Shown here in pieces: positions 1,689 to 16,361 of a stretch of 18,232 nucleotides of DNA. The translations under genes were made by a program, and so were the position numbers. This stretch comes from a virus (Duplodnaviria > Heunggongvirae > Uroviricota > Caudoviricetes), in IMG/VR virus record IMGVR_UViG_2778261667_000006, positions 1-18,232 of that record, one strand, 5' to 3'. The notes beneath the pieces were generated by a model that ran no database searches, was not told the DNA's origin, and was given only the letters and a program-made list of their open reading frames with translations. The stretch's first letter is position 1. Each line of letters begins with the position of its first letter.

Positions 1689-1690
1689 AA

Positions 1691-2137: not shown

Positions 2138-2206
2138 ACGAACATAGCCCCTTCATAAGCAATGAACCAAAGGAGAGTATGCTCAGTTTGTGATTTCCGT
2201 TGTTCT

Positions 2207-2225: not shown

Positions 2226-2233
2226 GAGTGTGA

Positions 2234-3079: not shown

Positions 3080-3089
3080 GTCAACCTCA

Positions 3090-4520
3090 TTACGGATAAG
3101 AAATGCTGAACGTAGAAGATTTTACGTCAAGATAAATAAAGTCATTAAAGTAAACAGCATCCTTCATATTTTGTATTTTTATGTCATAAGAGAGAAACAT
3201 ATCCAGTGATTCTATTACTCGCCAAATATCTTTAACTTTTACCTGTGCATAACATTGCTGGGAATCATCATCACTCTGTAGTAATAAACTGAATGATGAC
3301 GAATCACGACCAAAATTATCTTCCAACGCTGCTTTAATAGCATTTTGAGCGTCGTCGATCAGAACATTTTTACGTGCAATACCTGTAAAATTTATAGTAA
3401 ATGGCTGTTCATTTGTATCTACATACTCGAACCGCTTGTTCAACTCATTTGGAACATTCTCTAGAGCTTTCAGTATTTCTGATTTTAGCTGAGCTTGGCT
3501 TACACCCGGCTTATGTCCGCAAAAGAAAATCTTGTTGATGTTTCGAACGTCAAACCCAGTTATTTTTTCTTGTAACGCTTCGCCCCAAACGTTCAACCAT
3601 GAAGTTCCATGTACAACATTCTGAATGAATTGGCGATAATCACCGCCCCATACCACTTGTTCATCGTATGCAACATAATACTGAGCACGATTTCGAGTTT
3701 CTTCTGTAGTTTCCATGCCACTACCACCGGTAATGATCGAATCAGTTTTAAACTCTAGTGACTCCACATATTGAGCGATATTTCCAACCGGTTCTAACTT
3801 TTGTCCTTCAGCCAAAGTATAGTCGCCAAGACTAGCCATAACATCAATTCGAACCTGACAACCTGCTGGCGGCATCATACCCATAGAGCCATCACCAAAT
3901 TTAACTCCAAGTTGTTCTGTAGGTTTATATGCCAATGAATAGTGCTTACTCTTGTCTCTGGACATTCTAAATAATGGGTTATATGTCCATTTTTCTTCTA
4001 CGCCATCTGTAATAACATAAACGTCTAGGCTAGAGACTTCTTTTGTTAACTCTCTGGAAAGCAACAACGTCAGAAATAAAGTTTCCTTCTCAATATCAAA
4101 TGTAACGCTAACAGCTTCGTGCTGTTTGATTTCTACGCCAGAAACAGTTCCTCCAGCAGGAACCACAACACTATTAATAATTGCCAAAGGTGTTTGGTCA
4201 TTAGCAAGCAATTCAGCCCCGGCTGGTAACGTAATATCCCGATCAGTTTTATTGGTTATAGACGTTGTTCCGTATGAAGCACTAACAAATCGCCCTACGT
4301 AGCTACGGTCTTCAGCAACAGCTAAAATACTTGAGCGGCGCGTAGCCGTTGAAATAAGTCCCTCAGTGAGTCCACGGCTTGCAAATGTACGGGCAATATA
4401 AATAACCTGTGATCCGAATATAGCGTGCATCTGCACAAACTGACTATTTACAAATCGTGACCACCATGTGTTTTCATTTAACTTGGCGTTAAATTTGTCC
4501 AGTAATTCTGTAATAGTCAC
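3090..4520 (-). CDS. Baseplate J-like protein, 476 aa
   Basis: ORF-track frame with a GTG start at 4520-4518 overlapping the upstream gene's TGA stop (GTGA, coupled). Size and position directly after a gpW/gp25-like gene match the conserved W-J-I-fibre order of contractile-tail baseplate modules. Confidence 0.5.
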   Translation of the reverse strand: MTITELLDKFNAKLNENTWWSRFVNSQFVQMHAIFGSQVIYIARTFASRGLTEGLISTATRRSSILAVAEDRSYVGRFVSASYGTTSITNKTDRDITLPAGAELLANDQTPLAIINSVVVPAGGTVSGVEIKQHEAVSVTFDIEKETLFLTLLLSRELTKEVSSLDVYVITDGVEEKWTYNPLFRMSRDKSKHYSLAYKPTEQLGVKFGDGSMGMMPPAGCQVRIDVMASLGDYTLAEGQKLEPVGNIAQYVESLEFKTDSIITGGSGMETTEETRNRAQYYVAYDEQVVWGGDYRQFIQNVVHGTSWLNVWGEALQEKITGFDVRNINKIFFCGHKPGVSQAQLKSEILKALENVPNELNKRFEYVDTNEQPFTINFTGIARKNVLIDDAQNAIKAALEDNFGRDSSSFSLLLQSDDDSQQCYAQVKVKDIWRVIESLDMFLSYDIKIQNMKDAVYFNDFIYLDVKSSTFSISYP

Positions 4521-4891
4521 GCGCCCACCCCACTTGATTTCTGCATAACAATATCCATGCTCCCACCTTTCGCATAAAAACTAATTAATAAAGAATCTTC
4601 AGAAATTGATGTGCAACGAATCCCCTGCACATCCAAACCTGGCAAGTCTTGTCGTAGTTTTTTCATCATTCTCCCTTCAATAGCCACTTCAACTATGTGT
4701 GAAGTTTCAGAGCCGAATGGTTCATGCTTAAATTCTTCCATTGGATTCCCCCAAGAAGGTAAGCCATAAACACTCCCTTCAGGGGTTCGTAGCCACTCGT
4801 CAAGGCGGGCCATCCACGCTGCGGTACTTCCTTCTGCAATAATGACACCGCTCTCATTCGTTTGAAGTCTTGCGTCTATTTCGTAAAGCAT
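4517..4891 (-). CDS. Baseplate wedge protein, gpW/gp25-like, 124 aa
   Basis: ORF-track frame; ATG with GAGGA upstream. The segment LDEWLRTPEGSVYGLPSWG resembles the ILRTPxGSR core motif I recall from P2 gpW / T4 gp25 family proteins; size and position fit. Confidence 0.55.
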   Translation of the reverse strand: MLYEIDARLQTNESGVIIAEGSTAAWMARLDEWLRTPEGSVYGLPSWGNPMEEFKHEPFGSETSHIVEVAIEGRMMKKLRQDLPGLDVQGIRCTSISEDSLLISFYAKGGSMDIVMQKSSGVGA

Positions 4892-4896
4892 CGGTA

Positions 4897-7800
4897 TTAA
4901 TCCTCAAGTAGAGCATCCAGCGACGGGTCATTAATAGTTGTGCTCGCACGTGGCCGCGGCTGCGGCTGCGATGTTTTGACAACCTTATCTGGATCTCCTT
5001 TTGTATCATTTTTGTTCACATTAAGAAGGTCTTTCAGAATAGAACAGATGTTATCCAGCGCCTTCAACATAGCAGGATCGTTATTTGCGGTGTCAGTAGT
5101 TAATGGTTGTCTTATTCCGCTTCGAGCAAGATCGGTTACTGTGGGAAGCTGTGGCGGCATAGCAAGAAAAGGTTCCTGCACGGCTGACGCAGAGCCAAAT
5201 ATGGTATTATTTGCCTCAGTTGATATTCCCCTGATGCTATCAGCGGTTTGCTGAATACCATTATTTAGCCAACCACCAGCACTTCTTGTAAGTGGGCTAA
5301 TCGCCCTGGCGATTGTTGAATTCTGCCCTGTAGCCTGATAGACAAAATCATTCAATATGCCAGTGCCATCGATGCCACCAACAAGTTGTGAAATGTTGTC
5401 ACCAATTGCAGGTAATACAGCCGAACCAATGCGCTTCATACCTGTTAATGACGAATCAAACAAAGAGCCAAGAAATCCCTTATCTTCGCCGTCTATTATC
5501 TTATTGCCATTGTTATAGACAGGAATTCCTTTTGAGTTTACTGGTGTTTTTTTATTATCTGTTGACTGTGAATCGCCAGAGAGAAGATCGACCGAAGATG
5601 TATCGCGTTCAGGTGCCGATCTTTTTTGTATAGCCTCTCTGATATCAGCCACCTGGGGAGCTTTTTTGAATCCAAAAGATTTACCGGTCAAGTTGGATAT
5701 CTTTTCGGTCAGAGCTTGATCCATTCCCTTCGCCTTTTCAGAGAGCGAAGATATAGAACCAAATGAAGTAGCTGACGCAAAATCCTTAACCAAGTCCAGA
5801 CTTGTACCAGCAAGACTGGTAGCCGCACCACCAAATAAATTACTTACTCCACTGATACCGCTTTCATTTATGGCGATTAACCGCTCAAGCAAACTCGATG
5901 GCGAGGCAGTATTAACATCAGAGTTCTCTGGATTAACCAGTTGTGGTTGGTTACCTGTTTTTTGTGTTTTTTTTGCTGCTTGGGCATGTTGAGCAACCTC
6001 AATTGGCTTAGGTGTTGCTGTTGGAACTGCATTCAATACAGGTTGTGCCGGAGATGTGCCATCAGCATATTTCACCTTGCGACCAACACTATATTGCGAA
6101 TCACGAGCAATTAGCTGACCGCCATTCTCTTTCTGAATTTTATTAAGCCGCGCCAATGTTTCATCGGAGAAACGCCCTTCCCAACGACCAGTATTTGCGT
6201 TGAATACCCCAAGGGCATTCTTTATGAACTCATTGTTAACCGCCGGGTTTCCGCCTTCTTTAGTCGCTATTGCGCGAACTAATTGCGTCATAACCTCTGG
6301 GTTGCCTACGTCTATTTTTTCATTAGGCGAGACACCAAGATATTTGCTGACGTTATCAATATATTGATTAGTATTGTTCTCCTTTGGGGGTGCCCATTTT
6401 GAAATAATACTGGATACCGTTTGTAACTTCTGATATCCGGCAGCGGCACTGGTGCCGTTATAATAGCTGGATACTTGGTTTGCCAGCGCCCTGATTCCTT
6501 CTTCAGGCGTGTTGAATCGGGCAAAACGCTGTTCACCTTTTGCATTTGGCGCTTCCAGCGTCGCCCCTTCCTGATTGGCAAAAACAAGATTGCCGAGATT
6601 ATTATTTCGGTAATTTCGGTTTTTAGCGTTGCTGCCGCCAATATTCAGATCAGCTGCAATGGTGTTGCTGGCAGGGGCATTAAATTCAGCCGGGGAAGTA
6701 TACCCGTGCTCACCAACACCATCTTCACCATCACGCCCGCCTTGTAGCTGCTCACCTAAAGAATGAATCGCATCAACGGTCTTCTTGGTGCCATCCTCAA
6801 CCGCTTTTTTTACTTGCTGCGTGTTTTCATCAGTGGATAAAAATTTATCCTTAAGGCTACCAAAAGCAGATTTAGTGATATCTACTGCGCCATTAACACC
6901 ACGCGCAATATCTCCGGTATCAAAATTCTGAAGTTTTTCACCTGCCCTTTCGAAGCCTAACGCAGAAATTCCTTTGCCTATTAGATTGGTTGCACCAGAA
7001 ACTAAGCCTCCCATATCAAGAACATTAGCGGTTGCGTAAGCGGTTTTTTGCTGTGTGGATACAACATCATCATCACTTAAGCCAAAGGCCGCTTTTTGCG
7101 CATCTGTATCTGTGTAACCATCTATAGCGTCATATCCAGCCATTGCCAACGACCCGATGATGGGGATCGCTCTTGCTGCTGTTGATGCTGCCGATTTCAC
7201 ACCTATTTTGGCAGCACTTTTGAGGGCTACAGATTCAGTTTTTTTCTTTGCAATGGTTTCACCGGTTTTAACTGCGGCATCTTCGGTAACGACACCGGCA
7301 GACTTAACGGCTTTTGCAGTATTTTTTGTTTCTTTAGCAGCCCCCTTAGAAGCGTCACTAGCCGTGCTTATATCTTTGGCTTTGCTAACATTAGTTTTAA
7401 CAGTCTTTGCAGTTCCTGCGCCAACGCCAGCCGCAGCGGTTCCGGCAGCGGCTTTTTCTCCAACGGAAAGGGCTTTTTTCCCCAGATTGCGTCCTTTCCT
7501 TTTCGGTTTGTGTCGTTTATTTCTGCTGGTCTGATCGCCAATATTGATTTTATTTCTTCTACCTGGCCGATTTCTCCAGAGATCACTTAAGCCGAACTTA
7601 TTCCCAGAAGACACCGACTTGCGAAGCTTAGCTACTTCGTCAGAGACATTTTCCAAACCATCAATTATTTTGTTGTCATTGGCCTGAAGAATTTTTGTTT
7701 GCTCTTCTACTGCTTGTGTAGATCTTGTCTCAACTGCATTATTAAATGCAGTTGCAGAGGTTGTTTTTTGTGCATTGGATGCAGCCGGATAAGTGATCGC

Positions 7801-8637
7801 TGGCGATTTCGCTTCGTGATCTGGTGGATTATCTACCCACTCCTTAAGAGATTTTGTTTTCCCTGTAATCTCTTTTGTTATGTCATACATGCCGCGAGCC
7901 GCCATCCATAACGGGCCACCAGCACCGACACCAGCAGCATTTGTTATGGCTTCTTCACCTGCAGACTGATGGCCATCCATCCCCATAATGGAACCTAGTT
8001 TTCGGAGGAAGCCTGCTTGTAATTTTGCGTCGGCTTTACGCGCGTTCTGCAATTCTTTTTTTCTGGCTATATCCTCATTGCTTTTCTGGGATACAAAGCG
8101 TCCATTACTATCCCGAATCGGGCCTTTTGGGCTTTGGGGGGGTTGAAGTTCCAGAGAGGCAGAATTAGCTGCTACCGGTATAGAATCTTTCGACCTTTTG
8201 ATGGACTGGCGTGATCGCACAGAATGAACGCTTTCTGGTGTGTTAGTTGCAACGATAGAGCGATCTATGCCCTGGTCTATTAGTGCCCTCTCCTTTTTCG
8301 CAGGAAGACGTTTTTTATATGGATTAGTTTGGGCATCTCTAACGACATCAGGAGCGTCTTGCTCGTAGTTTTTACGCCTACGGGATAGCCTGTTACTAAC
8401 TTTACCTTGCTGTCCTCCCTGTTGAGTTATAGCGACACCACCAGAAAGAATGGCGTCTTTTATCTCAGCAAGTGCCTTAAGTTCGTTTGCGCTCGCCCCC
8501 TGAATGGCGTCAATTATTGCGATTCGGTCTTTATTTTCTTTCAAAATAACCTCTCTTTTACCAGCGGCGCTCAACGTTTCCCGGCTTGAGCTTTGTATTT
8601 TTCTTCCAGGGCTTTTGACATATGGAGTGCTCGCCAT
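4897..8637 (-). CDS. Large tail protein, 1246 aa; tape-measure-like / P1 Sit-like candidate
   Basis: Single 3.7-kb frame. Basic N-terminus, Ala/Gly-rich hydrophobic glycine-zipper-like segments (AAAGVGAGGPLWMAARG, AAGTAAAGVGAGTAK, IPIIGSLAMAGYDAI), a central globular-looking block (NLGNLVFANQEG...FARFNTPEEGIRALANQVSSYY...ISKWAPP) and a low-complexity C-terminus. Lies directly upstream of the baseplate genes. Weak SD at the ATG. Confidence 0.6.
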   Translation of the reverse strand: MASTPYVKSPGRKIQSSSRETLSAAGKREVILKENKDRIAIIDAIQGASANELKALAEIKDAILSGGVAITQQGGQQGKVSNRLSRRRKNYEQDAPDVVRDAQTNPYKKRLPAKKERALIDQGIDRSIVATNTPESVHSVRSRQSIKRSKDSIPVAANSASLELQPPQSPKGPIRDSNGRFVSQKSNEDIARKKELQNARKADAKLQAGFLRKLGSIMGMDGHQSAGEEAITNAAGVGAGGPLWMAARGMYDITKEITGKTKSLKEWVDNPPDHEAKSPAITYPAASNAQKTTSATAFNNAVETRSTQAVEEQTKILQANDNKIIDGLENVSDEVAKLRKSVSSGNKFGLSDLWRNRPGRRNKINIGDQTSRNKRHKPKRKGRNLGKKALSVGEKAAAGTAAAGVGAGTAKTVKTNVSKAKDISTASDASKGAAKETKNTAKAVKSAGVVTEDAAVKTGETIAKKKTESVALKSAAKIGVKSAASTAARAIPIIGSLAMAGYDAIDGYTDTDAQKAAFGLSDDDVVSTQQKTAYATANVLDMGGLVSGATNLIGKGISALGFERAGEKLQNFDTGDIARGVNGAVDITKSAFGSLKDKFLSTDENTQQVKKAVEDGTKKTVDAIHSLGEQLQGGRDGEDGVGEHGYTSPAEFNAPASNTIAADLNIGGSNAKNRNYRNNNLGNLVFANQEGATLEAPNAKGEQRFARFNTPEEGIRALANQVSSYYNGTSAAAGYQKLQTVSSIISKWAPPKENNTNQYIDNVSKYLGVSPNEKIDVGNPEVMTQLVRAIATKEGGNPAVNNEFIKNALGVFNANTGRWEGRFSDETLARLNKIQKENGGQLIARDSQYSVGRKVKYADGTSPAQPVLNAVPTATPKPIEVAQHAQAAKKTQKTGNQPQLVNPENSDVNTASPSSLLERLIAINESGISGVSNLFGGAATSLAGTSLDLVKDFASATSFGSISSLSEKAKGMDQALTEKISNLTGKSFGFKKAPQVADIREAIQKRSAPERDTSSVDLLSGDSQSTDNKKTPVNSKGIPVYNNGNKIIDGEDKGFLGSLFDSSLTGMKRIGSAVLPAIGDNISQLVGGIDGTGILNDFVYQATGQNSTIARAISPLTRSAGGWLNNGIQQTADSIRGISTEANNTIFGSASAVQEPFLAMPPQLPTVTDLARSGIRQPLTTDTANNDPAMLKALDNICSILKDLLNVNKNDTKGDPDKVVKTSQPQPRPRASTTINDPSLDALLED

Positions 8638-8691
8638 TGCGGTAATTGTTCAACGTCACTAACGGGCTGATATCCATACAGAGTCAGGTTG

Positions 8692-9513
8692 TTAATAATG
8701 GTTAGCCATCCATTCAGATCTAATTGATGGGATAAACTCTCTATTGAGAAAGGGGACGTACAGCGTGGTAGTCACGTCTGCACCCTCCTTAACGTTTTTG
8801 CATCGTTGTGGAGGCAGGATCAGGCGGCTTGTGCCTCGTTCAATAGCCATTTTTAAGCCGTGGCGAAGGTCTTTCTGCATGAGCTGAATGCGAGCTACCA
8901 GAGGGGTAAACTCGGTTTCCAGTGCCATGTTTTCAATAATATCGAATCGTCTGTTTGCAGCTTGTGTGAAGTCCTCCGGATCATCTTCAAGCGCCGTGCA
9001 TAAAGCGAGTTCAGCAATCCGCATACGTGCCACGCCAGCACTGTATTCGGGGCTTTTCATATCAGGAAGTGATGCCCGCATACGCTCAAGGAGTTCAGCG
9101 CCTTTCCCGGTTAATGGTTTAAGTATCCAGTCAGTTGGTACACCGTTAACTGGTACGTTGGTTTTTACGTAAGGCGGTACAGTGAGTATCTCTACTGTTT
9201 GAGCCAGATCACTCAGGTTTATATCAGCGTGATGCGTATTACCGCAGTGACCGCACTCATAGGAGTAGGTCATTACTGCATCGGGGCGCGAATTAACAAA
9301 TATCCACCAAAGGGCAGTTCTGCGATCCTGGACTGTCCAGTAAGCACTGTCGTTAATTTCACCATCCTGCATGGAGTTAAGGTACTCTGTAGTAGTTGCC
9401 TCATCTTCTGCCGGGTTCAGGTCAGAATATTTCAGCGCATCCTTCACGGTGGGTGCGTGGAACTGAATTTCTGTCTCAGGACGGGAAGGCAATGGGAATT
9501 TTGGAATGTTCAA
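8692..9513 (-). CDS. Hypothetical 273-aa protein, first gene of the leftward operon diverging from oriR; possible tail assembly protein by position
   Basis: ORF-track frame; ATG with GGAGG 12 nt upstream; contains a CGHCGNTHH cluster. No family recognised. Confidence 0.55.
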   Translation of the reverse strand: MNIPKFPLPSRPETEIQFHAPTVKDALKYSDLNPAEDEATTTEYLNSMQDGEINDSAYWTVQDRRTALWWIFVNSRPDAVMTYSYECGHCGNTHHADINLSDLAQTVEILTVPPYVKTNVPVNGVPTDWILKPLTGKGAELLERMRASLPDMKSPEYSAGVARMRIAELALCTALEDDPEDFTQAANRRFDIIENMALETEFTPLVARIQLMQKDLRHGLKMAIERGTSRLILPPQRCKNVKEGADVTTTLYVPFLNREFIPSIRSEWMANHY

Positions 9514-9599
9514 GTATTCCTCCGATAAGCAGGTGTCTGTTTATTCGTTGGAGGATAGGTAGTGTGTGAAATTGGGAGGAGCTTTGTAATTCTTCTTTT

Positions 9600-9608
9600 T
9601 TATCCACA
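9600..9608 (+). promoter_or_regulatory. DnaA box, perfect consensus TTATCCACA, at the outer edge of the origin
   Basis: Exact 9-mer read from the sequence; position relative to the GATC cluster and iterons matches P1-type oriR architecture. Confidence 0.6.
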
Positions 9609-9612
9609 GGAT

Positions 9613-9662
9613 AGATCCAATATATAGATCCTGATTAGATCCATATAGTACCAAACAGATCC
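9613..9662. promoter_or_regulatory. Cluster of four GATC (Dam) sites in AGATCC(A) heptamer-like repeats within an AT-rich stretch; origin-opening / methylation-control region
   Basis: GATC at 9614-9617, 9627-9630, 9638-9641 and 9658-9661, each within AGATCC, lying between the DnaA box and the iterons. Confidence 0.6.
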
Positions 9663-9708
9663 CGTAGCTCTTCAGGCCGTGTCACATAAGGCTTTAACCA
9701 CATTTCAG

Positions 9709-9812
9709 ATGTGTGCTGGAGGGAAAACGATGTGTGCTGACGGGAAATATATGTGTGCTGGAGGGTTTTACATGTGTGCTGGCGGGATGTAGGATGTGTG
9801 CTGACGGGAAAA
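9709..9812 (+). repeat. incC-type iteron array: five direct 19-bp RepA-binding repeats (ATGTGTGCTGGAGGGAAAA and variants) at about 21-bp spacing
   Basis: Repeats start at 9709, 9730, 9751, 9772 and 9794. The sequence matches the P1 plasmid iteron consensus as I remember it; five repeats upstream of repA is the P1 incC arrangement. Confidence 0.85.
9766..9794 (+). promoter_or_regulatory. Putative sigma70 promoter of repA embedded in the iterons (-35 TTTACA, 17-bp spacer, -10 TAGGAT); expected to be autorepressed by RepA
   Basis: Hexamers read from the sequence; they overlap iterons 3-5. Autorepression through promoter-iteron overlap is established for P1 repA; its application here is inference. 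Confidence 0.35.
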
Positions 9813-9820
9813 AAAGTCGG

Positions 9821-9829
9821 ATATCCACT
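9821..9829 (+). promoter_or_regulatory. Possible second, imperfect DnaA box (ATATCCACT, 7 of 9) between the last iteron and repA
   Basis: Sequence match only. Confidence 0.25.
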
Positions 9830-9867
9830 GTCGTAAACTTTATTCACAACATGACGGTAACTTATTG

Positions 9868-10728
9868 ATGGATAAGTCATTTATCTCTGATATTCTTTAT
9901 GCTGACATTGAAAGCAAGGCAAAAGAATTAACAGTTAATTCGAACAATACTGTTCAACCTGTCGCGCTTATGCGGCTTGGTGTTTTCGTCCCTAAACCAA
10001 CTAAAAAACAGGGTGAAAACAACGAGATAGATGCATCATCTGTTTTTTCTAAACTGGAAATCGCTCAAGCAGAAGGCTACGACAATATCAAGATTACTGG
10101 TCCTCGTTTGGACATGGATACTGATTTCAAAGTCTGGATTGGGGTAATCTACTCATTTAGCAAATATGGCTTATCATCGAACACTATTCGTCTTTCTTTT
10201 CAAGAGTTTGCAAAGGCGTGCGGATTTCCATCTAAGCGACTTGATGGGAAATTAAGAAACACGATCCACGATTCTTTAGGTCGGTTACGTAACAAAGGCA
10301 TCTCATTCAAAAGAGGTAAAAGTGCTCGTGGAAGCTATAATACTGGCTTGCTTAAAACGGGATATTTTGACTTTGAAACAGATGTCGTTGAACTGGAGGC
10401 TGATTCCAAGTTATGGGAAATCTTCCAGCTAGACTATCGGGTGCTTCTACAGCAACACGCACTTCGTGCTTTACCTAAAAAAGAGGCAGCCCAGGCCATA
10501 TATACCTTTATAGAAAGTCTCCCGGCACGGCCAATACCTATTTCATTTGCCAGAATACGTGAAAGATTAGCCTTGATGTCATCGGTAAGTGAGCAAAACA
10601 GAACGATAAAAAAAGCTATAGACCAGTTAAAAACAATAGGTTATCTCGATTGCACTATTGAAAAGCAAGGACGAGAAAACTTTATTATCGTTCACTCTCG
10701 GAATCCGAAACTTAAACCAACAGATTAA
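9868..10728 (+). CDS. repA: Plasmid replication initiator RepA (P1/IncY iteron-binding type), 286 aa
   Basis: Frame flanked upstream by five and downstream by seven copies of the same 19-bp iteron. The ORF track starts at TTG 9865; I prefer the adjacent ATG at 9868. The only plus-strand gene in the window. Confidence 0.88.
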   Translation: MDKSFISDILYADIESKAKELTVNSNNTVQPVALMRLGVFVPKPTKKQGENNEIDASSVFSKLEIAQAEGYDNIKITGPRLDMDTDFKVWIGVIYSFSKYGLSSNTIRLSFQEFAKACGFPSKRLDGKLRNTIHDSLGRLRNKGISFKRGKSARGSYNTGLLKTGYFDFETDVVELEADSKLWEIFQLDYRVLLQQHALRALPKKEAAQAIYTFIESLPARPIPISFARIRERLALMSSVSEQNRTIKKAIDQLKTIGYLDCTIEKQGRENFIIVHSRNPKLKPTD

Positions 10729-10950
10729 ATGTGTGCTGAAGGGATAGATTCATACCTGGATGTGTGGTGGAGGGAATTTCGGGGGATTGCTTACTTCAGA
10801 TGTGTGCTGGTGGGATAAATGACGCTCTTTACATGCAAAATTCCCCTCCAGCACACATGTTTCCATTATCATTCCCTCTACAACACATCTTGAGCAATGG
10901 GGTTGCCCGGCAGCACACATTTAACGTAACCCCTTCCCTCCAGCACACAT
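10729..10950. repeat. incA-type iteron array downstream of repA: three direct and four inverted copies of the 19-bp iteron (copy-number control locus)
   Basis: Direct copies at 10729-10747, 10760-10778 and 10800-10818; inverted copies (TTCCCTCCAGCACACAT type) at 10841-10858, 10871-10888, 10903-10920 and 10933-10950, spaced about 30 bp apart. Confidence 0.8.
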
Positions 10951-10962
10951 AATTAAAGCGTT

Positions 10963-11670
10963 TCAGAATTTGATCACTCCACTAACCGCTCCCTTTAACG
11001 CACTTGTAGCCATGCCAGCGGCACCGTTGACCAAAGCAGAAACACCTGAGCCAGCGGATGTGTATTTCTGGAAAGTGATTGGGTATGACAAGAACTCTGA
11101 CACCTGATCACGTGAGCGGGTTATTTCCCCAAGTTGCGTAGGAAATACGCGCATTTCTTCTTCCAGTTCTTTTCCGCCGTCCTGAGTTACCCGATAGAGA
11201 CGGATTTTCATCAGATATTCAGGAGGTAGGTTTATTGTACCGTCCGGATTTGTTACGCGAGAACGACGCTCTTTGAACCAGTTCATGATCTTGCCGTCTT
11301 CGGTATCTCTTACGGTCATAGTGACAGGTCCGGCGCTAACGTAGGTTGGTTTACTGAACTCCACGCTGCCTATCACCTTGCTTTCTGTCTCAATGTTCCC
11401 ACTGCTGTAGGTGATATCCTTCACGAACATATCGAAGCCGTTCAGACCATCCACTTCCACGGTCCACTGCCACCCCTGGGCGTAACGGATACGCATAGCG
11501 GCAGCAACAATATTTTTCCCGTAGGCAATATCGCTACTGTAATTCCCGCTTACCCCGCCGCCTGATATGGCTTTATCAAGAATGTCGCTAATGAGGTTGC
11601 TGGTGAATGATTTCGTGTTAAATGACAATGCGGTGGTCAACGTTCTACCAACGCTGCTGAAAATACTCAC
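10963..11670 (-). CDS. Hypothetical structural protein, 235 aa
   Basis: ORF-track frame; GTG start with GGAGG 7 nt upstream; its stop is 12 bp from the last incA iteron. No motif recognised. Confidence 0.55.
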   Translation of the reverse strand: MSIFSSVGRTLTTALSFNTKSFTSNLISDILDKAISGGGVSGNYSSDIAYGKNIVAAAMRIRYAQGWQWTVEVDGLNGFDMFVKDITYSSGNIETESKVIGSVEFSKPTYVSAGPVTMTVRDTEDGKIMNWFKERRSRVTNPDGTINLPPEYLMKIRLYRVTQDGGKELEEEMRVFPTQLGEITRSRDQVSEFLSYPITFQKYTSAGSGVSALVNGAAGMATSALKGAVSGVIKF

Positions 11671-11685
11671 TCTGCGCCTCCAGCG

Positions 11686-12237
11686 TTAAAAAATGGTAGC
11701 CCCCGGAATAATTGCCCGATTTGAAGACATTTTTTCCTCAATCTCCTGCACGCGGGCATATAGCGTTGCTTCATCGGGTAGATCGGAGTAGTCAAATTTC
11801 CCGTCGATGGACGCTCGGCGCTGCCGTGCGACATTTCTGACATTGATAAGCGCCTCCAGATATTCCTCCAGCATTCCAATGATTGCAGGAGGCACTTGCC
11901 ATTGATCCAGCTTTCTGTCGCGTAGATTAACCAGATACAGCATCCGAAAAGGCCAGCTTTCCGAACCTGTTAGCTCTAATTCAATAAAGCCGGATAATTC
12001 ATCCGAATATACCAACAGGCCATTGTTGTCGGTAACATGAACCAGAGAGAGATAATCTTCTGGCAATGGGATTGCCGTGCCACTAGCTTTTTCAAGTTTT
12101 AATGTTTTCACTACCCCTGCCCTGTCCTGATACGTTGTTAGTGCTTTGATCAGGAAGGCTTTCAGCGTTTCTTCTTCACGCACAAGCAGTGGGTTAAATC
12201 GTGCTTTAACGCTTTCTAATAATTCGGTTGGTGTCAT
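11686..12237 (-). CDS. Hypothetical structural protein, 183 aa
   Basis: ORF-track frame; ends 15 nt before the 235-aa gene start; weak SD. The overlapping 70-aa ORF at 11667-11879 is treated as spurious. Confidence 0.55.
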   Translation of the reverse strand: MTPTELLESVKARFNPLLVREEETLKAFLIKALTTYQDRAGVVKTLKLEKASGTAIPLPEDYLSLVHVTDNNGLLVYSDELSGFIELELTGSESWPFRMLYLVNLRDRKLDQWQVPPAIIGMLEEYLEALINVRNVARQRRASIDGKFDYSDLPDEATLYARVQEIEEKMSSNRAIIPGATIF

Positions 12238-12249
12238 CGTGTCTACAAC

Positions 12250-12284
12250 TCAAAAACAAAGATGTTCCCGCCACAAGGGCGGGA
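12250..12284 (-). terminator. Intrinsic-terminator-like hairpin (7-bp stem TCCCGCC/GGCGGGA, 5-nt loop) followed on the minus strand by a T-rich tract (ACATCTTTGTTTTTG)
   Basis: Inverted repeat at 12266-12284 and downstream T-run read from the sequence; sits just after the stop of the 163-aa tube-like gene. The T-tract is interrupted, so it may be a partial terminator. Confidence 0.4.
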
Positions 12285-12291
12285 GCGGGGA

Positions 12292-12783
12292 TTATTCTGC
12301 CCAGTTGTAAACAATACGCAGGGAAGGCTTAACGACTGCCGTTACGTCTTCTGAGGAGAAGTCGACGGCGTCGGAATATACTTTGCAGTGAGAATATGTG
12401 CGGATCAGACCTTTATGGTTGCCGCTATTGGATTCAGCCGCTGCCTGTAAGGTAATTTCCTGATATTCTTTGCCGTATACCATTTGTTTTACAGCGGCGA
12501 GAACTGCGCCCTCGATGGTTTCTGCACATGTGACCTGAAATTCACCAGAGTTACGTAGTGGTCCGTGCTGGTTGAATTTCATGCCGCCAGGAGCGTAATC
12601 TTCCACATCTTCGCGTGTCATTTCTGGTAACTGAGCAGTACGAACCAGTACAGACAGATGCTCATAACCTTTAATGGTCATCCAATATTCAGAGCCAATA
12701 AGTTTTTCGCCCGCAGCCAGGTTTTTATTAAACCGGGATTTCAGAAAGGCCATATCGGCTTTTGTATTTGCAAAACCGGACAT
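12292..12783 (-). CDS. Tail tube-like protein, 163 aa (T4 gp19-like candidate)
   Basis: ATG with AGGAG 6 nt upstream. Same length as T4 gp19 and a similar C-terminal ending (...VYNWAE versus gp19 ...DYWE as I recall it); followed by a terminator-like hairpin, as is common after abundant tube genes. The resemblance is remembered, not computed. Confidence 0.45.
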   Translation of the reverse strand: MSGFANTKADMAFLKSRFNKNLAAGEKLIGSEYWMTIKGYEHLSVLVRTAQLPEMTREDVEDYAPGGMKFNQHGPLRNSGEFQVTCAETIEGAVLAAVKQMVYGKEYQEITLQAAAESNSGNHKGLIRTYSHCKVYSDAVDFSSEDVTAVVKPSLRIVYNWAE

Positions 12784-12791
12784 AAATACTC

Positions 12792-13382
12792 CTACACAAA
12801 AACAGATGAGATATTGCTACGGTTAATAGAGGTGTTTCCGCTGCATTGCAGGGTTACCGTGTTATGAGTGAAATAGCCTTCCGGTGTGCGCGGGGCGTCC
12901 AGTTGGTAACTCACGCTTTTGATAACAACGTCGGTAAGGGCTATGTTTCTACCTATGTTTAACGTTACCGTTTCCGGGCGGCGACCGAATGGCGCTACAT
13001 TGTTCAATTCCGGCGATTCCATCTTCAGCAATGCTGTAATGGCTGCGTTCACTTCGAGTTGTGCGTTCACTGTCGCCATGAAATCAATAACCAGATTAAA
13101 TTCAGGCGGTTGCTGACCTTCCCAAACAAGCATTGAGTTAAAGAGGGTCTTTGTTGTTACGCTGGTTGCGGTCTGAAGTGTATCCGCAAGAGAGCCAGCC
13201 GCTGCGCTAATACCGCCAAGCAACCCACCGACTGACTGGTTTTCAAATGGTGATTGCCACATTGATGACAGTTCTGCGGTAGAGCCTTCACCGATATAAC
13301 CGACGACCATATCCTCAGTGGAGAGGATATAAACCTTCATTAATGGACTTATTCCGTCAGGCATTATCGCGCCGCAAATCAA
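12792..13382 (-). CDS. Hypothetical tail protein, 196 aa (possible second tube-family or tube-associated protein)
   Basis: ORF-track frame; start is TTG at 13382 with a strong GGGAGG 8 nt upstream and an in-frame TAG immediately before; the internal ATGs lack an SD. Confidence 0.5.
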   Translation of the reverse strand: MICGAIMPDGISPLMKVYILSTEDMVVGYIGEGSTAELSSMWQSPFENQSVGGLLGGISAAAGSLADTLQTATSVTTKTLFNSMLVWEGQQPPEFNLVIDFMATVNAQLEVNAAITALLKMESPELNNVAPFGRRPETVTLNIGRNIALTDVVIKSVSYQLDAPRTPEGYFTHNTVTLQCSGNTSINRSNISSVFV

Positions 13383-13431
13383 ACGCTATTCCTCCCAGAT
13401 AGAGGCCACCTTTGCAGGCGGCCTGTGTCAC

Positions 13432-14166
13432 TTACAAGCCGCGTTTTTTGCGAATTCGCATTGATTTTTTGCGGTTGATATTCGCTACGGATGTATGCGC
13501 TTTACGGCGTGCTTTTTTCAGCGCCTGTTTTTGCAGTGACGTCATGCGGCGAGGGCGCGGGCGCTTGCGGATAATGGTAACCTTGCCATCACGAACAACT
13601 TTTTTACGTACCGCTTCCAGCATTGCGCTGTCACCACCAGCAACGGTGTAAATGGCAATAGCCGCTTCCAGCATGTCGCCGTCGCTTTCGGAAAGTGCGT
13701 CATATACACGTTCAGCAGCAGAGTCATCTTCATCGTCGATCATTTCTGTTACGTCGTCCTGATCCGCGCCAAGAGCAACAGCGGCATCAGCAAGGGCTGC
13801 GAGAGCATCGTTATAAGCATCGATTTGTTCATCGGTAAAATCGGTGTCTTCATCGATATCAGCCAGGCCAGCCATAGTGATTGCTAATGCATCAAATGAG
13901 TCAGCCTCCGGATCACCATCTTCAACCCAACCTGCAAGCATGGAAGCCGCCAGGCTGCGCATATCTCCTTGTGCGCGAGACTCAACCGCTTCCATCATCG
14001 CGGTTTCAATATCTTTTTTGGGCTTTGCTTGAGTGTTAGCTCCTTTCTGTTCGGCGCTTTCCAGCATGGCTTTATCATCATTTCCCGGCGTGGATTTATC
14101 ACCGCTTTCAAAGCAGCCAGAACCAAAAATCGCACGCATAAAAGGATCAGCAGTATAATTTTTCAT
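13432..14166 (-). CDS. Strongly acidic protein with a poly-basic C-terminal tail, about 244 aa; function unknown
   Basis: ORF-track frame 13432-14190, but the first ATG lies inside a hairpin; I prefer the ATG at 14166 with GGAGAGAGG upstream. Residues about 80-200 are Asp/Glu-rich; the last about 45 residues are Lys/Arg-rich (KRPRPRRMTSLQKQALKKARRKAHTSVANINRKKSMRIRKKRGL). Confidence 0.6.
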   Translation of the reverse strand: MKNYTADPFMRAIFGSGCFESGDKSTPGNDDKAMLESAEQKGANTQAKPKKDIETAMMEAVESRAQGDMRSLAASMLAGWVEDGDPEADSFDALAITMAGLADIDEDTDFTDEQIDAYNDALAALADAAVALGADQDDVTEMIDDEDDSAAERVYDALSESDGDMLEAAIAIYTVAGGDSAMLEAVRKKVVRDGKVTIIRKRPRPRRMTSLQKQALKKARRKAHTSVANINRKKSMRIRKKRGL

Positions 14167-14181
14167 TTTCAAACCTCTCTC

Positions 14182-14201
14182 CCCCCGCATTTCTGCGGGG
14201 G
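14182..14201 (-). other. Intercistronic stem-loop (8-bp stem CCCCCGCA/TGCGGGGG; GAAA tetraloop on the mRNA strand), no U-tract
   Basis: Perfect inverted repeat between the 552-aa gene stop (14209) and the SD of the acidic protein gene. Confidence 0.4.
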
Positions 14202-14208
14202 TAATAAA

Positions 14209-15867
14209 TCAGCGCATCAGAATTGGCTTACCGACGATGCGGCGAGCTGTACCGGTTGGGCATACAGACCAGGACACTTCCCACAGATCGATGTCTTTCT
14301 GGACAACCTGGACGACATACGGTTCTTCTCCCTGAGATTGGTCACGTGGAGTCACCAGCGCACCAGACGCAACGAAGCGGTCAAGCAATTCGGTCATTGC
14401 CTTCATTAGCGTTTCTTTAGTAATGCCATCTGGTTCATGCTTAATTGTCTGAGCAACCTCATAGAAATTGCGGGCAATAGCATTCATCAGAGACGAAACA
14501 TGCTGGAATCGCAGATAGTTGTTTTTACTGAAAGTTGTTAAAGAGTCGTCGATGTAGACAGAACCATCAGCAGCAACAGAAACTGGATTAATGCGCGCGG
14601 TAACGAACGCTTCACGATCAACTGCACCGATATTTGGAATTCGGGCAATATTCTGTCGGTCAATAGTCGCGCGAGATATGCCAGCCGGAGCGTAATGCCA
14701 ACCGCCAACATCAGAAACCAGCGCAACACCTTTCGCTTTTGCGACAAATGCATCGCAACTGATGCCGTAAACAACATTCATACCAGTGAAGGTATCCCGG
14801 CAGGAAAATGGGAAGTAGTAACGGCTTGGTTGATGTGAGCCGCCAAAACTATGGCTTTTGGCTTCTGAAATGGCATTTTCTGGTGTCTGGTTGCCCTTCA
14901 GGTCGTAGAACATGTCTACGCGAACGTCTTCAGCCAGATTTTTGAGCGCGGCTAAGGCGGATGCGTCATAGCAGCCCAGTGACAGCAATGCGGTGTAATT
15001 AACCTCTGAAGCTTCGAGGACTTTTAATGCTTCCAGATAGTCTTCAGTGTCAATGGTGGACAGATCGCCATCAGTGCCGCCTTCAAAAGCTACATCCTCA
15101 AACATGAGTTGAGCAGCAGATGCTTCCGCATTATCTGCCAGGACGGCACCAATGCGAGTGGACTGGCTTTCAAGCAGTGTCGGAATCCATGCTGGTTGGC
15201 CCATGTCGTTAGTGCCTTCTGGATTGAAGGACACCTGGTGGCTTTCCAGCACCTCAACGGACCCATCGGTTTGTTTTTCTTTCAGCGTCAGCGTAAAGAG
15301 TTCGCTTTCTTCATCATCGCGAGTTAGTGATAACATGCGATTTTGAGATGCATCACCATCTTTGATGAAGAATACGGCCATCCCATCATCGTTAATCTGG
15401 GGTGTCTCTTTTGGAGTGAAGGTGACTGATTTCGTTGTTGCAGTTGAAGCAATACCAACGCTCAATGTGTCACCTGGATTTACTGTGGTTTCAGTAGGCT
15501 CCACGGTAAGTGTTTTGTTTGCCTTAGCCGCTTTTGCTCTGCCCGCAACGGAAACAGAAATACCTGGCACCTTCATGTCTTTAGCGCAAACACGAACGAC
15601 ATAACCAGAGCCGCCTTTTACTGCACGCTCCACGTGGCGGTATGGTTCAAATGCTGATCCCAGGCGAGGGTGAATAGGTGAACCTAATACGCTTTGATAA
15701 GTCGTATCGTCAACTTTCAGCACTTTACCCGGTGCGCCACGACGCGATATTACAAGTCCAGCAAAGACGGATGCGCCACCGCTGGTATTGGTGAGGGTAG
15801 CGTCAGCATTTACCGACATAACAGCGACGCCAGCCGCCTGCCCTACCGAAAAACTAATCTTATTCAT
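14209..15867 (-). CDS. Tail sheath protein candidate, 552 aa
   Basis: ORF-track frame; ATG with GAGGA upstream. The N-terminal pattern (...SVFAGLVISRRGAPGKVLKVDDTTYQSVLGSP) resembles the sheath N-terminal pattern I recall from T4 gp18-type proteins; size and position upstream of tube-like genes fit. Confidence 0.5.
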   Translation of the reverse strand: MNKISFSVGQAAGVAVMSVNADATLTNTSGGASVFAGLVISRRGAPGKVLKVDDTTYQSVLGSPIHPRLGSAFEPYRHVERAVKGGSGYVVRVCAKDMKVPGISVSVAGRAKAAKANKTLTVEPTETTVNPGDTLSVGIASTATTKSVTFTPKETPQINDDGMAVFFIKDGDASQNRMLSLTRDDEESELFTLTLKEKQTDGSVEVLESHQVSFNPEGTNDMGQPAWIPTLLESQSTRIGAVLADNAEASAAQLMFEDVAFEGGTDGDLSTIDTEDYLEALKVLEASEVNYTALLSLGCYDASALAALKNLAEDVRVDMFYDLKGNQTPENAISEAKSHSFGGSHQPSRYYFPFSCRDTFTGMNVVYGISCDAFVAKAKGVALVSDVGGWHYAPAGISRATIDRQNIARIPNIGAVDREAFVTARINPVSVAADGSVYIDDSLTTFSKNNYLRFQHVSSLMNAIARNFYEVAQTIKHEPDGITKETLMKAMTELLDRFVASGALVTPRDQSQGEEPYVVQVVQKDIDLWEVSWSVCPTGTARRIVGKPILMR

Positions 15868-15905
15868 GCTGTGTTCTTATCCTCTAAAGCGAGAGAACTA
15901 GGCAA

Positions 15906-15930
15906 GGCTACCCACGGTTAATGGGCAGCC
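15906..15930 (-). other. Imperfect intercistronic hairpin (GGCTaCCCA / TGGGcAGCC, 7-nt loop)
   Basis: Inverted repeat with one mismatch, between the Ig-like gene stop and the sheath gene start. Confidence 0.25.
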
Positions 15931-15935
15931 TCTGA

Positions 15936-16214
15936 TCAGGATTCGCTTACCGTGAAATTGTCGCCTACGGTTACTTCTTTCGTAGTCGGTTCAACACTGA
16001 CGGCGCTTACGCTTTTAGGTGCCTCCCTAACAGTGACTGTGCACTGTGCGGTTTTATTGCCGTCATTGGTTTTGATTGTCAGCACTGCCTGCCCGGCCTT
16101 AAGAGCGGTACATGTAGTGCCATCAACCTGGACAATTTCAGGGTGATCGGACTCAACAGTGAAAGATTTGTCTGTTGCGTCAGATGGCGAGATAGTTACT
16201 TGAATGTTTGCCAT
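15936..16214 (-). CDS. Ig-like (Big_2-type) domain protein, 92 aa; probable capsid decoration or accessory protein
   Basis: ATG with AGGAG 7 nt upstream. The sequence VTISPSD...FTVESD...TALKAGQAVLTIKTNDGNKTAQCTVTV has the strand pattern of a bacterial Ig-like domain; the C-terminus (SVSAVSVEPTTKEVTVGDNFTV) looks like the first strand of a second, truncated copy. Confidence 0.6.
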   Translation of the reverse strand: MANIQVTISPSDATDKSFTVESDHPEIVQVDGTTCTALKAGQAVLTIKTNDGNKTAQCTVTVREAPKSVSAVSVEPTTKEVTVGDNFTVSES

Positions 16215-16227
16215 TCTTTTCTCCTGA

Positions 16228-16254
16228 ACGCCCCTTATTCAGGGGCGTGTTTTT
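16228..16254 (+). terminator. Plus-strand intrinsic terminator (8-bp stem ACGCCCCT/AGGGGCGT, 5-nt loop, then GTTTTT) inside a minus-strand operon
   Basis: Perfect inverted repeat followed by T5 on the plus strand only. On the minus strand the same hairpin sits directly upstream of the SD of the Ig-like gene, with no U-tract. Confidence 0.45.
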
Positions 16255-16361
16255 GCCTTACTTCTGCTTTGTTTTTTTCTGTGCCTTTGAAGTGTTCGCG
16301 GCGATAGTTTCACCTTCATCTACGTCAAGTGACGTTGGTGATACCGACACGTTCGCCACCA

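What the first reader, a model, noticed from the sequence alone, without database searches (positions are those of the whole stretch)
9596..10962. Complete P1/IncY-type iteron replicon sitting between tail and head/tail gene blocks, with no partition genes beside it
Seen directly: a consensus DnaA box, four GATC sites, five direct 19-bp iterons at 21-bp spacing, repA, then seven more iterons in both orientations. Established knowledge: this is the oriR-incC-repA-incA layout of the P1 prophage plasmid. Here the module is only about 1.4 kb and is flanked on both sides by minus-strand structural genes; the last iteron is 12 bp from the stop of a structural gene. In P1 as I recall it, repA is followed by parA-parB; no ParA-like Walker-box protein is present here. 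This suggests a phage-plasmid whose replicon has been placed within the late region, or a P1 relative with a rearranged backbone.
Basis: partly seen in the sequence, partly recalled or inferred. Interest (0 to 1): 0.75.

Follow-up and report, generated by a model that had tools for sequence, protein, structure and literature searches.

The report
P1-type replicon in D6-like phage-plasmid
This is an intact plasmid replication module of the phage P1 type, sitting where the whole D6 group of P1-related phage-plasmids keeps its replicon (between two tail genes, with partition genes about 10 kb away), so the layout is real but is the known norm for that group.

Summary
RepA is full length and 84% identical to P1 RepA. 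Its iteron consensus is identical to P1's.

The window is a whole 18,232-bp draft-assembly contig from a D6-like (P1-g2) phage-plasmid. The replicon lies between tail genes pmgB and tub, which are 14 bp apart in one late operon in P1. Phage D6 and about 100 plasmids carry a different, RepE-like iteron replicon in this same slot. A third, p0111-like replicon also occurs there. One relative carries repA-parA-parB.

Partition in this group is by StbA/StbB (ParM/ParR type) about 10 kb away. That separation is already published (Pfeifer et al. 2021).

Two points look new to me:
- The slot behaves as an exchangeable cassette with fixed breakpoints (9570-9579 and 10935).
- Displaced replicons leave iterons behind next to tub. 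D6 keeps exactly one P1-type iteron core, 12 nt from the tub stop.

Verdict: observation confirmed, interpretation supported, a new member of a known kind, modest interest.

The parts
9570..10935 (+). Exchangeable replicon cassette, defined by where homology to D6-type elements is lost and regained
   Evidence: blastn against D6 shows homology up to window 9569 and again from 10936. The near-identical backbone L144 breaks at 9579 and 10935. GC is 40-42% inside against 48-50% in the flanks.
9600..9608 (+). Consensus DnaA box TTATCCACA at the left end of oriR
   Evidence: Only perfect match in the window. It aligns with the second of P1's two tandem boxes.
9612..9662 (+). Cluster of four GATC-containing heptamers (TAGATCC x3, CAGATCC); the Dam-methylation and opening region of oriR
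   Evidence: GATC at 9614, 9627, 9638 and 9658, the densest cluster in the window. It aligns with P1's five annotated Dam sites.
9708..9811 (+). incC-equivalent: five direct 19-bp iterons spaced 21, 21, 21 and 22 nt
   Evidence: The first iteron, GATGTGTGCTGGAGGGAAA, is identical to P1 iteron copy 14.
9767..9795 (+). repA promoter-like site (TTTACA, 17 nt, TAGGAT) embedded in iterons 4 and 5
   Evidence: Only sigma-70-like site found in 9300-11300. It lies at the aligned position of the annotated P1 PrepA.
9840..9848 (+). Second DnaA-box-like site (TTATTCACA, one mismatch) in the repA leader
   Evidence: It aligns with TTATCCACA in the relatives L045 and L046 and with CTATCCACA in P1.
9868..10728 (+). 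repA: 286-aa iteron-binding replication initiator
   Evidence: 84% identical to P1 RepA over 283 aa with no gaps. Pfam Rep3_N scores 28.6 bits against a cut-off of 22.4. It differs from the CP067430 copy by 25 synonymous and 0 non-synonymous changes.
10728..10951 (.). incA-equivalent copy-control array: 3 forward and 4 reverse iterons, the first overlapping the last base of the repA stop codon as in P1
   Evidence: P1 has 3 forward and 6 reverse. The distance from the last incC iteron to the first incA iteron is 935 nt in both.
8692..9513 (-). pmgB homologue (tail/baseplate morphogenesis), left border of the slot
   Evidence: 97% aa identity to D6 orf41 and about 40% to P1 PmgB. Weak Pfam T4_baseplate hit.
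9514..9569 (-). Backbone leader upstream of pmgB (GGAGG ribosome-binding site, TTG start), conserved whichever replicon is in the slot
   Evidence: Alignment with D6 and CP067430. No sigma-70-like or P1-type late promoter was recognised here.
10963..11670 (-). tub homologue (major tail tube protein), right border of the slot
   Evidence: Corresponds to D6 orf43, annotated 'similar to P1 gene tub'. 99% aa identity in D6-type loci from IMG/VR.

Best explanation
Region 9570-10962 is a functional low-copy plasmid replicon of the P1 RepA/iteron family. It occupies the standard replicon slot of D6-like (P1-g2) phage-plasmids, between the tail genes pmgB and tub.

Mechanism (inferred from P1 biology, not tested here):
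- RepA monomers bind the five origin iterons.
- Host DnaA binds the box at 9600. The adjacent methylated GATC region is opened.
- RepA bound to iterons 4 and 5 represses its own promoter.
- The seven downstream iterons titrate RepA and pair with the origin ('handcuffing'), holding copy number near one.

Partition is not linked to the replicon. In this group it is supplied by a StbA/StbB (ParM/ParR-type) operon about 10 kb away, beyond the end of this contig.

The slot behaves as an exchangeable cassette. Elements with near-identical backbones carry either this P1-type replicon, a RepE-like replicon (phage D6 itself), or a p0111-like one. The breakpoints are the same each time, consistent with homologous recombination in the flanks.

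P1-type iteron remnants sit beside tub in D6-type elements. They indicate that the RepE-like cassette originally displaced a P1-type replicon arranged as in this window.
For: Anatomy and conservation:
- All oriR, incC, PrepA, repA and incA parts align column by column with P1.
- RepA is 84% identical to P1 RepA at full length, and the iteron consensus is identical.
- Selection: 25 synonymous against 0 non-synonymous differences from the CP067430 copy.

Backbone identity:
- 92% nucleotide identity to D6 and to circular plasmids of about 93 kb.
- The window equals contig PTSF01000032.1. Contigs of 90 and 94 kb that are 98.7-98.9% identical carry the same replicon.

The slot:
- In P1, pmgB and tub are 14 bp apart within the LPsit late operon.
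- More distant relatives (tub 54-65% identical) have tub and pmgB 100-400 bp apart with no replicon between them.
- D6 has orf42 in the slot, which is RepE-like (280 bits to NF010305).
- About 111 PLSDB plasmids carry the D6 type and about 9-13 carry this type.
- L028 and L030 carry a third type, 41% identical to RepA and 85% identical to the alternative replicase found on P1 backbones.
- L046 has pmgB-repA(93%)-parA-parB-tub.

Cassette exchange:
- L144 is 99.0% and 97.8% identical in the two flanks but carries the D6-type Rep, with breaks at 9579 and 10935.

Iteron remnants:
- D6 has exactly one P1 iteron core in 91 kb (0.008 expected), 12 nt from the tub stop.
- The remnant is present in all 17 D6-type IMG/VR loci with 99% tub.
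- L028 keeps about five D6-type iterons between its own replicon and tub.

Partition elsewhere:
- parM/StbA plus StbB lie about 10 kb away in CP067430, CP044179 and D6.
- They are also on the IMG/VR contig that carries a 100%-identical RepA.
- Pfeifer et al. 2021 report the same separation.
Against: - No function was tested. Replication, copy control and incompatibility are inferred from P1.
- The window has one left-hand DnaA box where P1 has two, four GATC sites where P1 has five, and seven incA iterons where P1 has nine.
- PLSDB/MOB-suite types the close relatives as rep_cluster_2221, not IncY.
- The direction of replacement (P1-type first, RepE-like later) rests on the iteron remnants and on parsimony. 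Demonstrated cassette exchange between close backbones weakens the parsimony part.
- How pmgB, sit and the other downstream tail genes are transcribed across or after a convergently oriented 1.4-kb replicon is unexplained. No promoter was recognised upstream of pmgB, and no terminator was recognised downstream of tub.
Confidence: 0.85

Rival explanations
1. The RepE-like (D6-type) replicon is the original occupant of the slot. The P1-type cassette in this window is a later import from a P1-like phage-plasmid or an IncY plasmid.
For: - The cassette has lower GC than its flanks.
- RepA is 84% identical to P1 RepA, whereas structural proteins are only about 40% identical.
- P1-type replicons are portable and also occur on a conjugative F-type plasmid.
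- The D6 type is roughly ten times more common.
- Both alleles occur on 98-99% identical backbones.
Against: - D6-type elements carry a P1-type iteron core and a degenerate second iteron beside tub, in the exact register of this window's last iteron. That is hard to explain unless a P1-type replicon was there first.
- The window's backbone is an outgroup to the pair CP067430 and D6, yet the window and CP067430 share the P1-type allele. The repA dS of 0.144 lies within the backbone range of 0.08-0.52.
- The deeper relative L046 has repA-parAB in the slot.
- The nearest RepA alleles outside the D6 group are only 73-77% identical in nucleotides, so there is no recent donor.
Confidence: 0.2
2. The module is a decaying or silent remnant. 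The element would then be integrated in the chromosome or maintained by another replicon, and this region would no longer drive replication.
For: - The window is a short draft contig whose topology is unknown.
- incA has two fewer iterons than in P1, and one DnaA box is missing.
Against: - repA is intact, with 0 non-synonymous against 25 synonymous differences from a relative.
- All twelve iterons and the promoter are conserved.
- Relatives are circular plasmids of 90-97 kb.
- The D6 annotation shows only one plasmid-type initiator, in this slot, plus the lytic repL.
- In the E. coli complete-genome search, 404 of 412 matching places were on plasmids, and every listed full-length match of this type was on a plasmid.
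Confidence: 0.03
3. The replicon was placed between pmgB and tub by a transposon or other mobile element, not by recombination between related phage-plasmids.
For: The insertion is compact (1.4 kb), differs in GC, and sits in what is a 14-bp junction in P1.
Against: - No transposase, terminal inverted repeats or target-site duplication is seen at 9570 or 10962.
- All three cassette types share the same borders and orientation.
- The only open frames inside the cassette are repA and two short overlapping ORFs.
Confidence: 0.03

Closest known systems
Phage P1 plasmid replicon (oriR-incC-repA-incA; IncY)
   Same: - Same order, orientation and spacing of parts.
- RepA is 286 aa in both and 84% identical.
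- The 19-bp iteron consensus is identical.
- Five origin iterons, with the promoter embedded in them.
- The first incA iteron overlaps the repA stop codon.
- DnaA box plus GATC heptamers to the left.
   Different: - 72.7% nucleotide identity only.
- One left-hand DnaA box instead of two, four GATC sites instead of five, and seven incA iterons instead of nine.
- No parA-parB-parS downstream.
- Flanked by pmgB and tub rather than by upfA and parA/gene 23.
- Relatives are typed rep_cluster_2221, not IncY.
Phage D6 (MF356679) and D6-like / P1-g2 phage-plasmids
   Same: - Backbone 92% identical with identical gene order.
- An iteron replicon in the same slot and the same orientation.
- StbA/StbB partition about 10 kb away in relatives.
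   Different: - D6's initiator (orf42, 251 aa) is RepE-like and has no pairwise similarity to this RepA. Its iterons are unrelated (GGTGTAAGATTTGCCCTCAA).
- D6 retains only a remnant of the P1-type iterons.
E. coli/Salmonella plasmids with the same allele in the same slot (e.g. NZ_CP067430, NZ_CP066033, NZ_AP018804, NZ_CP035876, NZ_CP044179)
   Same: Identical RepA protein, the same twelve iterons, and the same borders.
   Different: - The replicon differs by 3-4% in nucleotides and the backbone by about 8%.
- The window's lineage is closer to contigs from GCA_031194775.1 and ERZ28508964 (98.7-98.9%).
IMG/VR contig IMGVR_UViG_3300009011_000012 (L031/L046)
   Same: A D6-clade relative (tub 80% identical) with a P1-type replicon (RepA 93% aa) in the pmgB|tub slot, in the same orientation.
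   Different: It carries parA (57% to P1 ParA) and parB between incA and tub. It also has a StbA homologue (76%) elsewhere on the contig.

Membership tests
P1-type (IncY-family) iteron replicon | Initiator orthologous to P1 RepA at full length | tested here: met
   84% identity over 283 of 286 aa, no gaps.
P1-type (IncY-family) iteron replicon | Five direct 19-bp iterons of the P1 consensus at about 21-bp spacing in the origin | tested here: met
   9708-9811, spaced 21, 21, 21 and 22 nt. The first iteron is identical to P1 copy 14.
P1-type (IncY-family) iteron replicon | DnaA box(es) and a cluster of GATC heptamers to the left of the iterons | tested here: met
   TTATCCACA at 9600 and four GATC at 9614-9661, aligned with the P1 features. 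One box and one GATC fewer than P1.
P1-type (IncY-family) iteron replicon | repA promoter embedded in the origin iterons (autorepression) | tested here: met
   Consensus match only: TTTACA-17-TAGGAT at 9767-9795, at the aligned position of P1 PrepA. Repression itself was not tested.
P1-type (IncY-family) iteron replicon | Downstream incA iteron array in two orientations, starting at the repA stop codon | tested here: met
   Seven iterons (3 forward, 4 reverse) at 10728-10951. P1 has nine (3 forward, 6 reverse).
P1-type (IncY-family) iteron replicon | Replication incompatibility with P1, the operational definition of IncY | not testable with these tools
   Predicted positive. The iteron consensus is identical, and PMC10999674 reports plasmids with proven P1 incompatibility whose RepA is only 72-73% identical to P1 RepA.
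P1-type (IncY-family) iteron replicon | Typed as IncY by sequence-based replicon typing | tested here: not met
   PLSDB/MOB-suite labels the close relatives rep_cluster_2221. P1-like plasmids are labelled IncY and D6-type ones rep_cluster_1704. Nucleotide identity to P1 is 72.7%.
P1 plasmid-maintenance region (rep plus par as one block) | parA-parB-parS immediately downstream of incA | tested here: not met
   tub follows 11 nt after the last iteron. No ParA/ParB/StbA similarity anywhere in the window.
D6-like (P1-g2) phage-plasmids | Backbone collinear with D6 and highly similar to it | tested here: met
   92% identity over 91% of the window, with the same gene order.
D6-like (P1-g2) phage-plasmids | Plasmid replicon located between pmgB and tub, separated from the partition genes | tested here: met
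   Published separation 'by 14 persistent genes' in PMC7969092.
D6-like (P1-g2) phage-plasmids | D6's own RepE-like initiator (orf42) | tested here: not met
   No similarity between this RepA and D6 orf42. This is an alternative allele at the same slot.
D6-like (P1-g2) phage-plasmids | StbA/StbB (ParM/ParR-type) partition operon on the same element | not testable with these tools
   The contig ends before that region. It is present in CP067430, CP044179, D6 and the IMG/VR contig with identical RepA.
Rep_3 winged-helix iteron initiators (Pfam PF01051/PF21205) | Score above the Pfam gathering threshold | tested here: inconclusive
   Rep3_N scores 28.6 against 22.4 and passes. Rep3_C scores 19.2 against 21.1 and falls just below. 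No NCBIfam or PDB sequence match.

The most novel reading that the evidence does not exclude
The pmgB|tub slot is a recombination hotspot for replicons, and each replacement leaves iterons of the displaced replicon beside tub. These remnants could be retained because they are useful. They might titrate or handcuff the initiator of competing P1-type (or RepE-type) phage-plasmids and so act as an incompatibility weapon. Alternatively, they might act as RepA-dependent roadblocks that couple plasmid state to transcription of the tail operon running through the replicon.
Probability: 0.1. Interest if true: 0.6.

Novelty: new member of a known kind. Interest (0 to 1): 0.3.

Why it matters
The replicon type decides which phage-plasmids can coexist in one cell. 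A D6-like element carrying this P1-type replicon is predicted to be incompatible with P1 and IncY plasmids, whereas D6 proper should be compatible with them.

Common typing and screening schemes use the IncY repA, the p0111 rep and the D6 repB as markers. They would mislabel or miss this minority allele.

Three unrelated iteron replicons alternate at one fixed slot inside a tail operon, with remnants of earlier occupants left behind. This is a clear, datable example of replicon swapping in phage-plasmids, which has been proposed as a way to escape incompatibility. None of it changes what is known about how such replicons work.

Tried and rejected
- D6 genome paper: Gilcrease & Casjens 2018 (PMC5800970) is not held. 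I cannot say whether the alternative alleles or the iteron remnants were already described there.
- Late promoters: I searched for P1-type late promoters using the -22 box and -10 of LP23 and LPsit read from P1. No site lies upstream of pmgB or within the replicon. A relaxed scan across the D6 genome was uninformative. How the genes downstream of the replicon are transcribed remains open.
- Sigma-70 and terminator scan of 9300-11300: only PrepA and two weak plus-strand hairpins were found, and nothing on the minus strand.
- Exact-pattern scans for the source: two of genome contigs and one of metagenome contigs found nothing. The source was found instead by an exact protein look-up.
- Rfam: no RNA family in the window.
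- PDB and NCBIfam: no match for RepA.
- Considered and rejected: a transposon-borne insertion (no ends or duplications), an integrated or decayed remnant (intact gene under purifying selection, circular relatives), and a recent transfer from P1 itself (only 72.7% nucleotide identity).
Full report
**1. The observation**

- The only perfect DnaA box in the window is at 9600-9608.
- Four GATC sites lie at 9614, 9627, 9638 and 9658. This is the densest GATC cluster in the window, whose average is one per 260 nt.
- Five direct 19-bp iterons start at 9708, 9729, 9750, 9771 and 9793.
- repA runs from the ATG at 9868 to the stop at 10728 and encodes 286 aa.
- Seven further iterons follow. Three are forward (10728, 10759, 10799) and four are reverse (10841, 10871, 10903, 10933).
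- The iteron core with up to three mismatches occurs 11 times, all inside this region, against 0.01 expected.
- The last iteron ends 11 nt before the stop codon of the minus-strand gene at 10963-11670.
- No partition gene is present. P1 ParA/ParB, D6 StbA/StbB and small ParA proteins give no tblastn hit better than E=0.25, and no Walker A motif lies in a real ORF.

**2. What the replicon is**

The region is 72.7% identical in nucleotides to the oriR-repA-incA region of P1 and P7. RepA is 84% identical to P1 RepA across its whole length without gaps.

A five-way alignment of the origin and the P1 annotation show that every annotated P1 feature has a counterpart at the aligned position:
- the DnaA box;
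- the GATC heptamers;
- five incC iterons;
- the repA promoter embedded in iterons 4 and 5 (found independently as the only sigma-70-like site in the region);
- a DnaA-like box in the leader;
- an incA array whose first iteron overlaps the repA stop codon.

The distance from the last incC iteron to the first incA iteron is 935 nt in both. The window's first iteron, GATGTGTGCTGGAGGGAAA, is identical to a P1 iteron.

The differences are quantitative. The window has one left-hand DnaA box where P1 has two, four GATC sites where P1 has five, and seven incA iterons where P1 has nine.

The gene is under purifying selection. It differs from the copy on plasmid CP067430 by 25 synonymous and no non-synonymous changes.

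The mechanism I give comes from established knowledge of P1 and was not tested here. It comprises iteron-bound RepA monomers plus DnaA opening the methylated AT-rich region, autorepression of repA, and copy control by titration and handcuffing through incA.

**3. What the surrounding element is**

The window is 92% identical to phage D6 over 91% of its length, and similarly close to many circular E. coli and Salmonella plasmids of about 90 kb. The missing 9% is mainly the replicon.

By correspondence with the D6 annotation, the minus-strand genes on the left of the replicon are:
- S;
- R (1691-2137);
- 16 (2234-3079);
- bplA (3090-4520);
- pmgA (4517-4891);
- sit (4897-8637);
- pmgB (8692-9513).

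After the replicon come:
- tub (10963-11670);
- pmgC (11686-12237);
- bplB (12292-12783);
- pmgG (12792-13382);
- 21 (13432-14190);
- 22, the tail sheath (14209-15867);
- an Ig-like protein (15936-16214);
- 23, the major capsid protein (16362-18059).

The window is the reverse complement of the entire contig PTSF01000032.1 of NCBI assembly GCA_002965845.1. There is therefore no 'rest of the contig' to inspect. Contigs of 90,048 bp and 94,233 bp from other samples are 98.7-98.9% identical and carry the same replicon.

**4. Comparison with the P1 layout**

In P1 the order is upfA, oriR-repA-incA, parA-parB-parS, then gene 23. P1 pmgB and tub are 14 bp apart inside one late operon driven by LPsit upstream of pmgC.

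It is, however, the normal one for the D6 group. D6 itself has a plasmid initiator (orf42) in the same slot and orientation.

D6's partition genes, stbA/stbB plus a small parA-like gene, lie about 10.5 kb away, beyond gene 23. The same is true of plasmids carrying this window's replicon allele, and of the IMG/VR contig whose RepA is 100% identical.

Pfeifer et al. [quoted passage not shown]

**5. The slot holds alternative replicons**

D6's orf42 shows no similarity to this RepA. It is RepE-like, with unrelated iterons.

Homology between the window and D6 stops at 9569 and resumes at 10936.

- In PLSDB about 111 plasmids carry the D6-type cassette, and 9 to 13 carry this one at 80% identity or more.
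- Among 5,426 complete E. coli genomes, seven carry it.

A survey of IMG/VR loci anchored on tub and on RepA gave the following.
- On backbones with 99% tub identity, 17 loci have the D6 type and 2 have the P1 type.
- On a sister lineage (tub 84-85%), two have the D6 type and two have a third replicase. That replicase is 41% identical to RepA and 85% identical to the alternative replicase of P1-backbone elements, presumably the p0111 type.
- In a deeper relative (tub 80%), the slot holds repA (93% aa), parA and parB.
- In more distant relatives (tub 54-65%), tub and pmgB are 100-400 bp apart with no replicon.

The slot is therefore a derived feature of the D6 clade.

**6. Exchange and remnants**

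Contig L144 is 99.0% and 97.8% identical to the window in the two flanks but carries the D6-type cassette, with breaks at 9579 and 10935. The alleles are therefore exchanged between close backbones at fixed borders. Homologous recombination in the flanks is the simplest explanation.

The right border falls inside the window's last iteron. Correspondingly, D6 has exactly one P1-type iteron core in its 91-kb genome, 12 nt from the tub stop, where 0.008 would be expected by chance. A degenerate second iteron sits beside it.

This remnant is present in all 17 D6-type loci with 99% tub and in L144.

Likewise, the third-type cassette in L028 has its own iterons (ATCGCATACAGTCAATGTT), yet retains about five D6-type iterons between them and tub.

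I infer that replacements entered on the pmgB side and left the tub-proximal iterons of the previous occupant. I also infer that the RepE-like cassette first replaced a P1-type replicon arranged as in this window.

Supporting that order:
- The window's backbone is an outgroup to the pair CP067430 and D6. Backbone dS is 0.08-0.52 for the window against either, and 0.01-0.10 between those two.
- The window and CP067430 nevertheless share the P1-type allele, at a repA dS of 0.144.

The demonstrated exchange makes the parsimony argument weaker than the remnant argument.

**7. Origin of the allele**

Structural proteins are about 40% identical to P1's, whereas RepA is 84% identical. The replicon family has therefore moved between lineages since P1 and D6 diverged.

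The transfer is not recent. The nearest RepA alleles outside the D6 group (93-95% aa, found in repA-parA-parB-23 arrangements in L045 and L102) are only 73-77% identical in nucleotides. A related replicon also sits on a conjugative F-type Salmonella plasmid. The cassette has lower GC (40-42%) than its flanks (48-50%).

**8. Is it IncY?**

By sequence typing it is not. Relatives are labelled rep_cluster_2221, whereas P1-type plasmids are labelled IncY.

By function it probably is. The iteron consensus is identical. A paper from the Lobocka laboratory notes that plasmids with experimentally proven P1 incompatibility have RepA only 72-73% identical to P1 RepA (PMC10999674).

This is a prediction, not a result.

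**9. Open point**

The replicon is convergent with tub and divergent from pmgB, inside what is a single late operon in P1. I found no terminator downstream of tub and no recognisable sigma-70 or P1-type late promoter upstream of pmgB.

The 56 nt upstream of pmgB (9514-9569) are conserved whichever cassette is present.

Two possibilities remain and could not be decided. Late transcription may read through the replicon, antisense to repA. Alternatively, an unrecognised promoter may serve pmgB.

**10. Verdict**

The object is a new sequence variant of a known replicon type, in the known position for a known phage-plasmid group.

Records with the same allele in the same slot are already public, and one (NZ_CP066033) has been used as a P1-g2 representative (PMC10879196).

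Two findings may be new: the multi-allelic slot with fixed breakpoints, and the iteron remnants. I did not find either in the papers I could read. I could not read the D6 genome paper.

Noticed in passing
window 1-18232 (whole): The window is the complete contig PTSF01000032.1 of NCBI assembly GCA_002965845.1, reverse-complemented. The contig ends inside the tail-fibre S gene on one side and just upstream of the capsid gene on the other.
   Followed up: yes
L003 11656-11697 (D6 genome 46925-46966): Phage D6 carries a vestigial pair of P1-type iterons between its own RepE-like replicon and tub. It is the only P1 iteron core in the 91-kb genome and is conserved in all D6-type loci examined.
   Followed up: yes
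L028 4749-4945: A D6-clade element with a p0111-like replicon in the slot still carries about five D6-type (RepE-like) iterons next to tub. This is a second example of a displaced replicon leaving its control iterons behind.
   Followed up: partly
L046 4001-7503 (IMGVR_UViG_3300009011_000012): A deeper D6-clade relative has repA-parA-parB in the pmgB|tub slot and also a StbA homologue elsewhere on the contig. It therefore has two partition systems on one element.
   Followed up: partly
window 12250-12290, minus strand: There is a G+C-rich hairpin followed by a T-run (CCCGCCCTTGTGGCGGG...TTTGTTTTTG) between bplB and pmgC, only about 15 nt before the pmgC start. It looks like an intrinsic terminator inside the tail gene block. 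In P1 the late promoter LPsit sits at the corresponding junction.
   Followed up: no
window 3129-3146, minus strand (D6: L003 3797-3814): This is the only site in the window that fits the strict regex I derived from two P1 late promoters (-22 box plus -10): AATGACTT-TATT-TATCTT. It lies about 50 nt upstream of gene 16, inside the end of bplA, and is conserved in D6.
   Followed up: no
window 9562-9569: The last conserved backbone bases before the left breakpoint read AGTGTGTG. This matches the first 8 nt of some P1 iterons (for example P1 copy 9, AGTGTGTGCTGG...). It could be an iteron half-site at the recombination border, or chance.
   Followed up: no
window 4897-8637: The sit (tape-measure/transglycosylase) gene varies in length between close relatives: 1246 aa here, 1260 aa in D6 and CP067430, and 1215 aa in the 98.7-98.9% identical contigs L140-L144.
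   Followed up: no
window 1-1000: The left end differs from relatives (84-95% identity, or no match before about 330). It corresponds to the invertible tail-fibre segment with the cix site annotated in D6. This probably explains why the assembly broke there.
   Followed up: no
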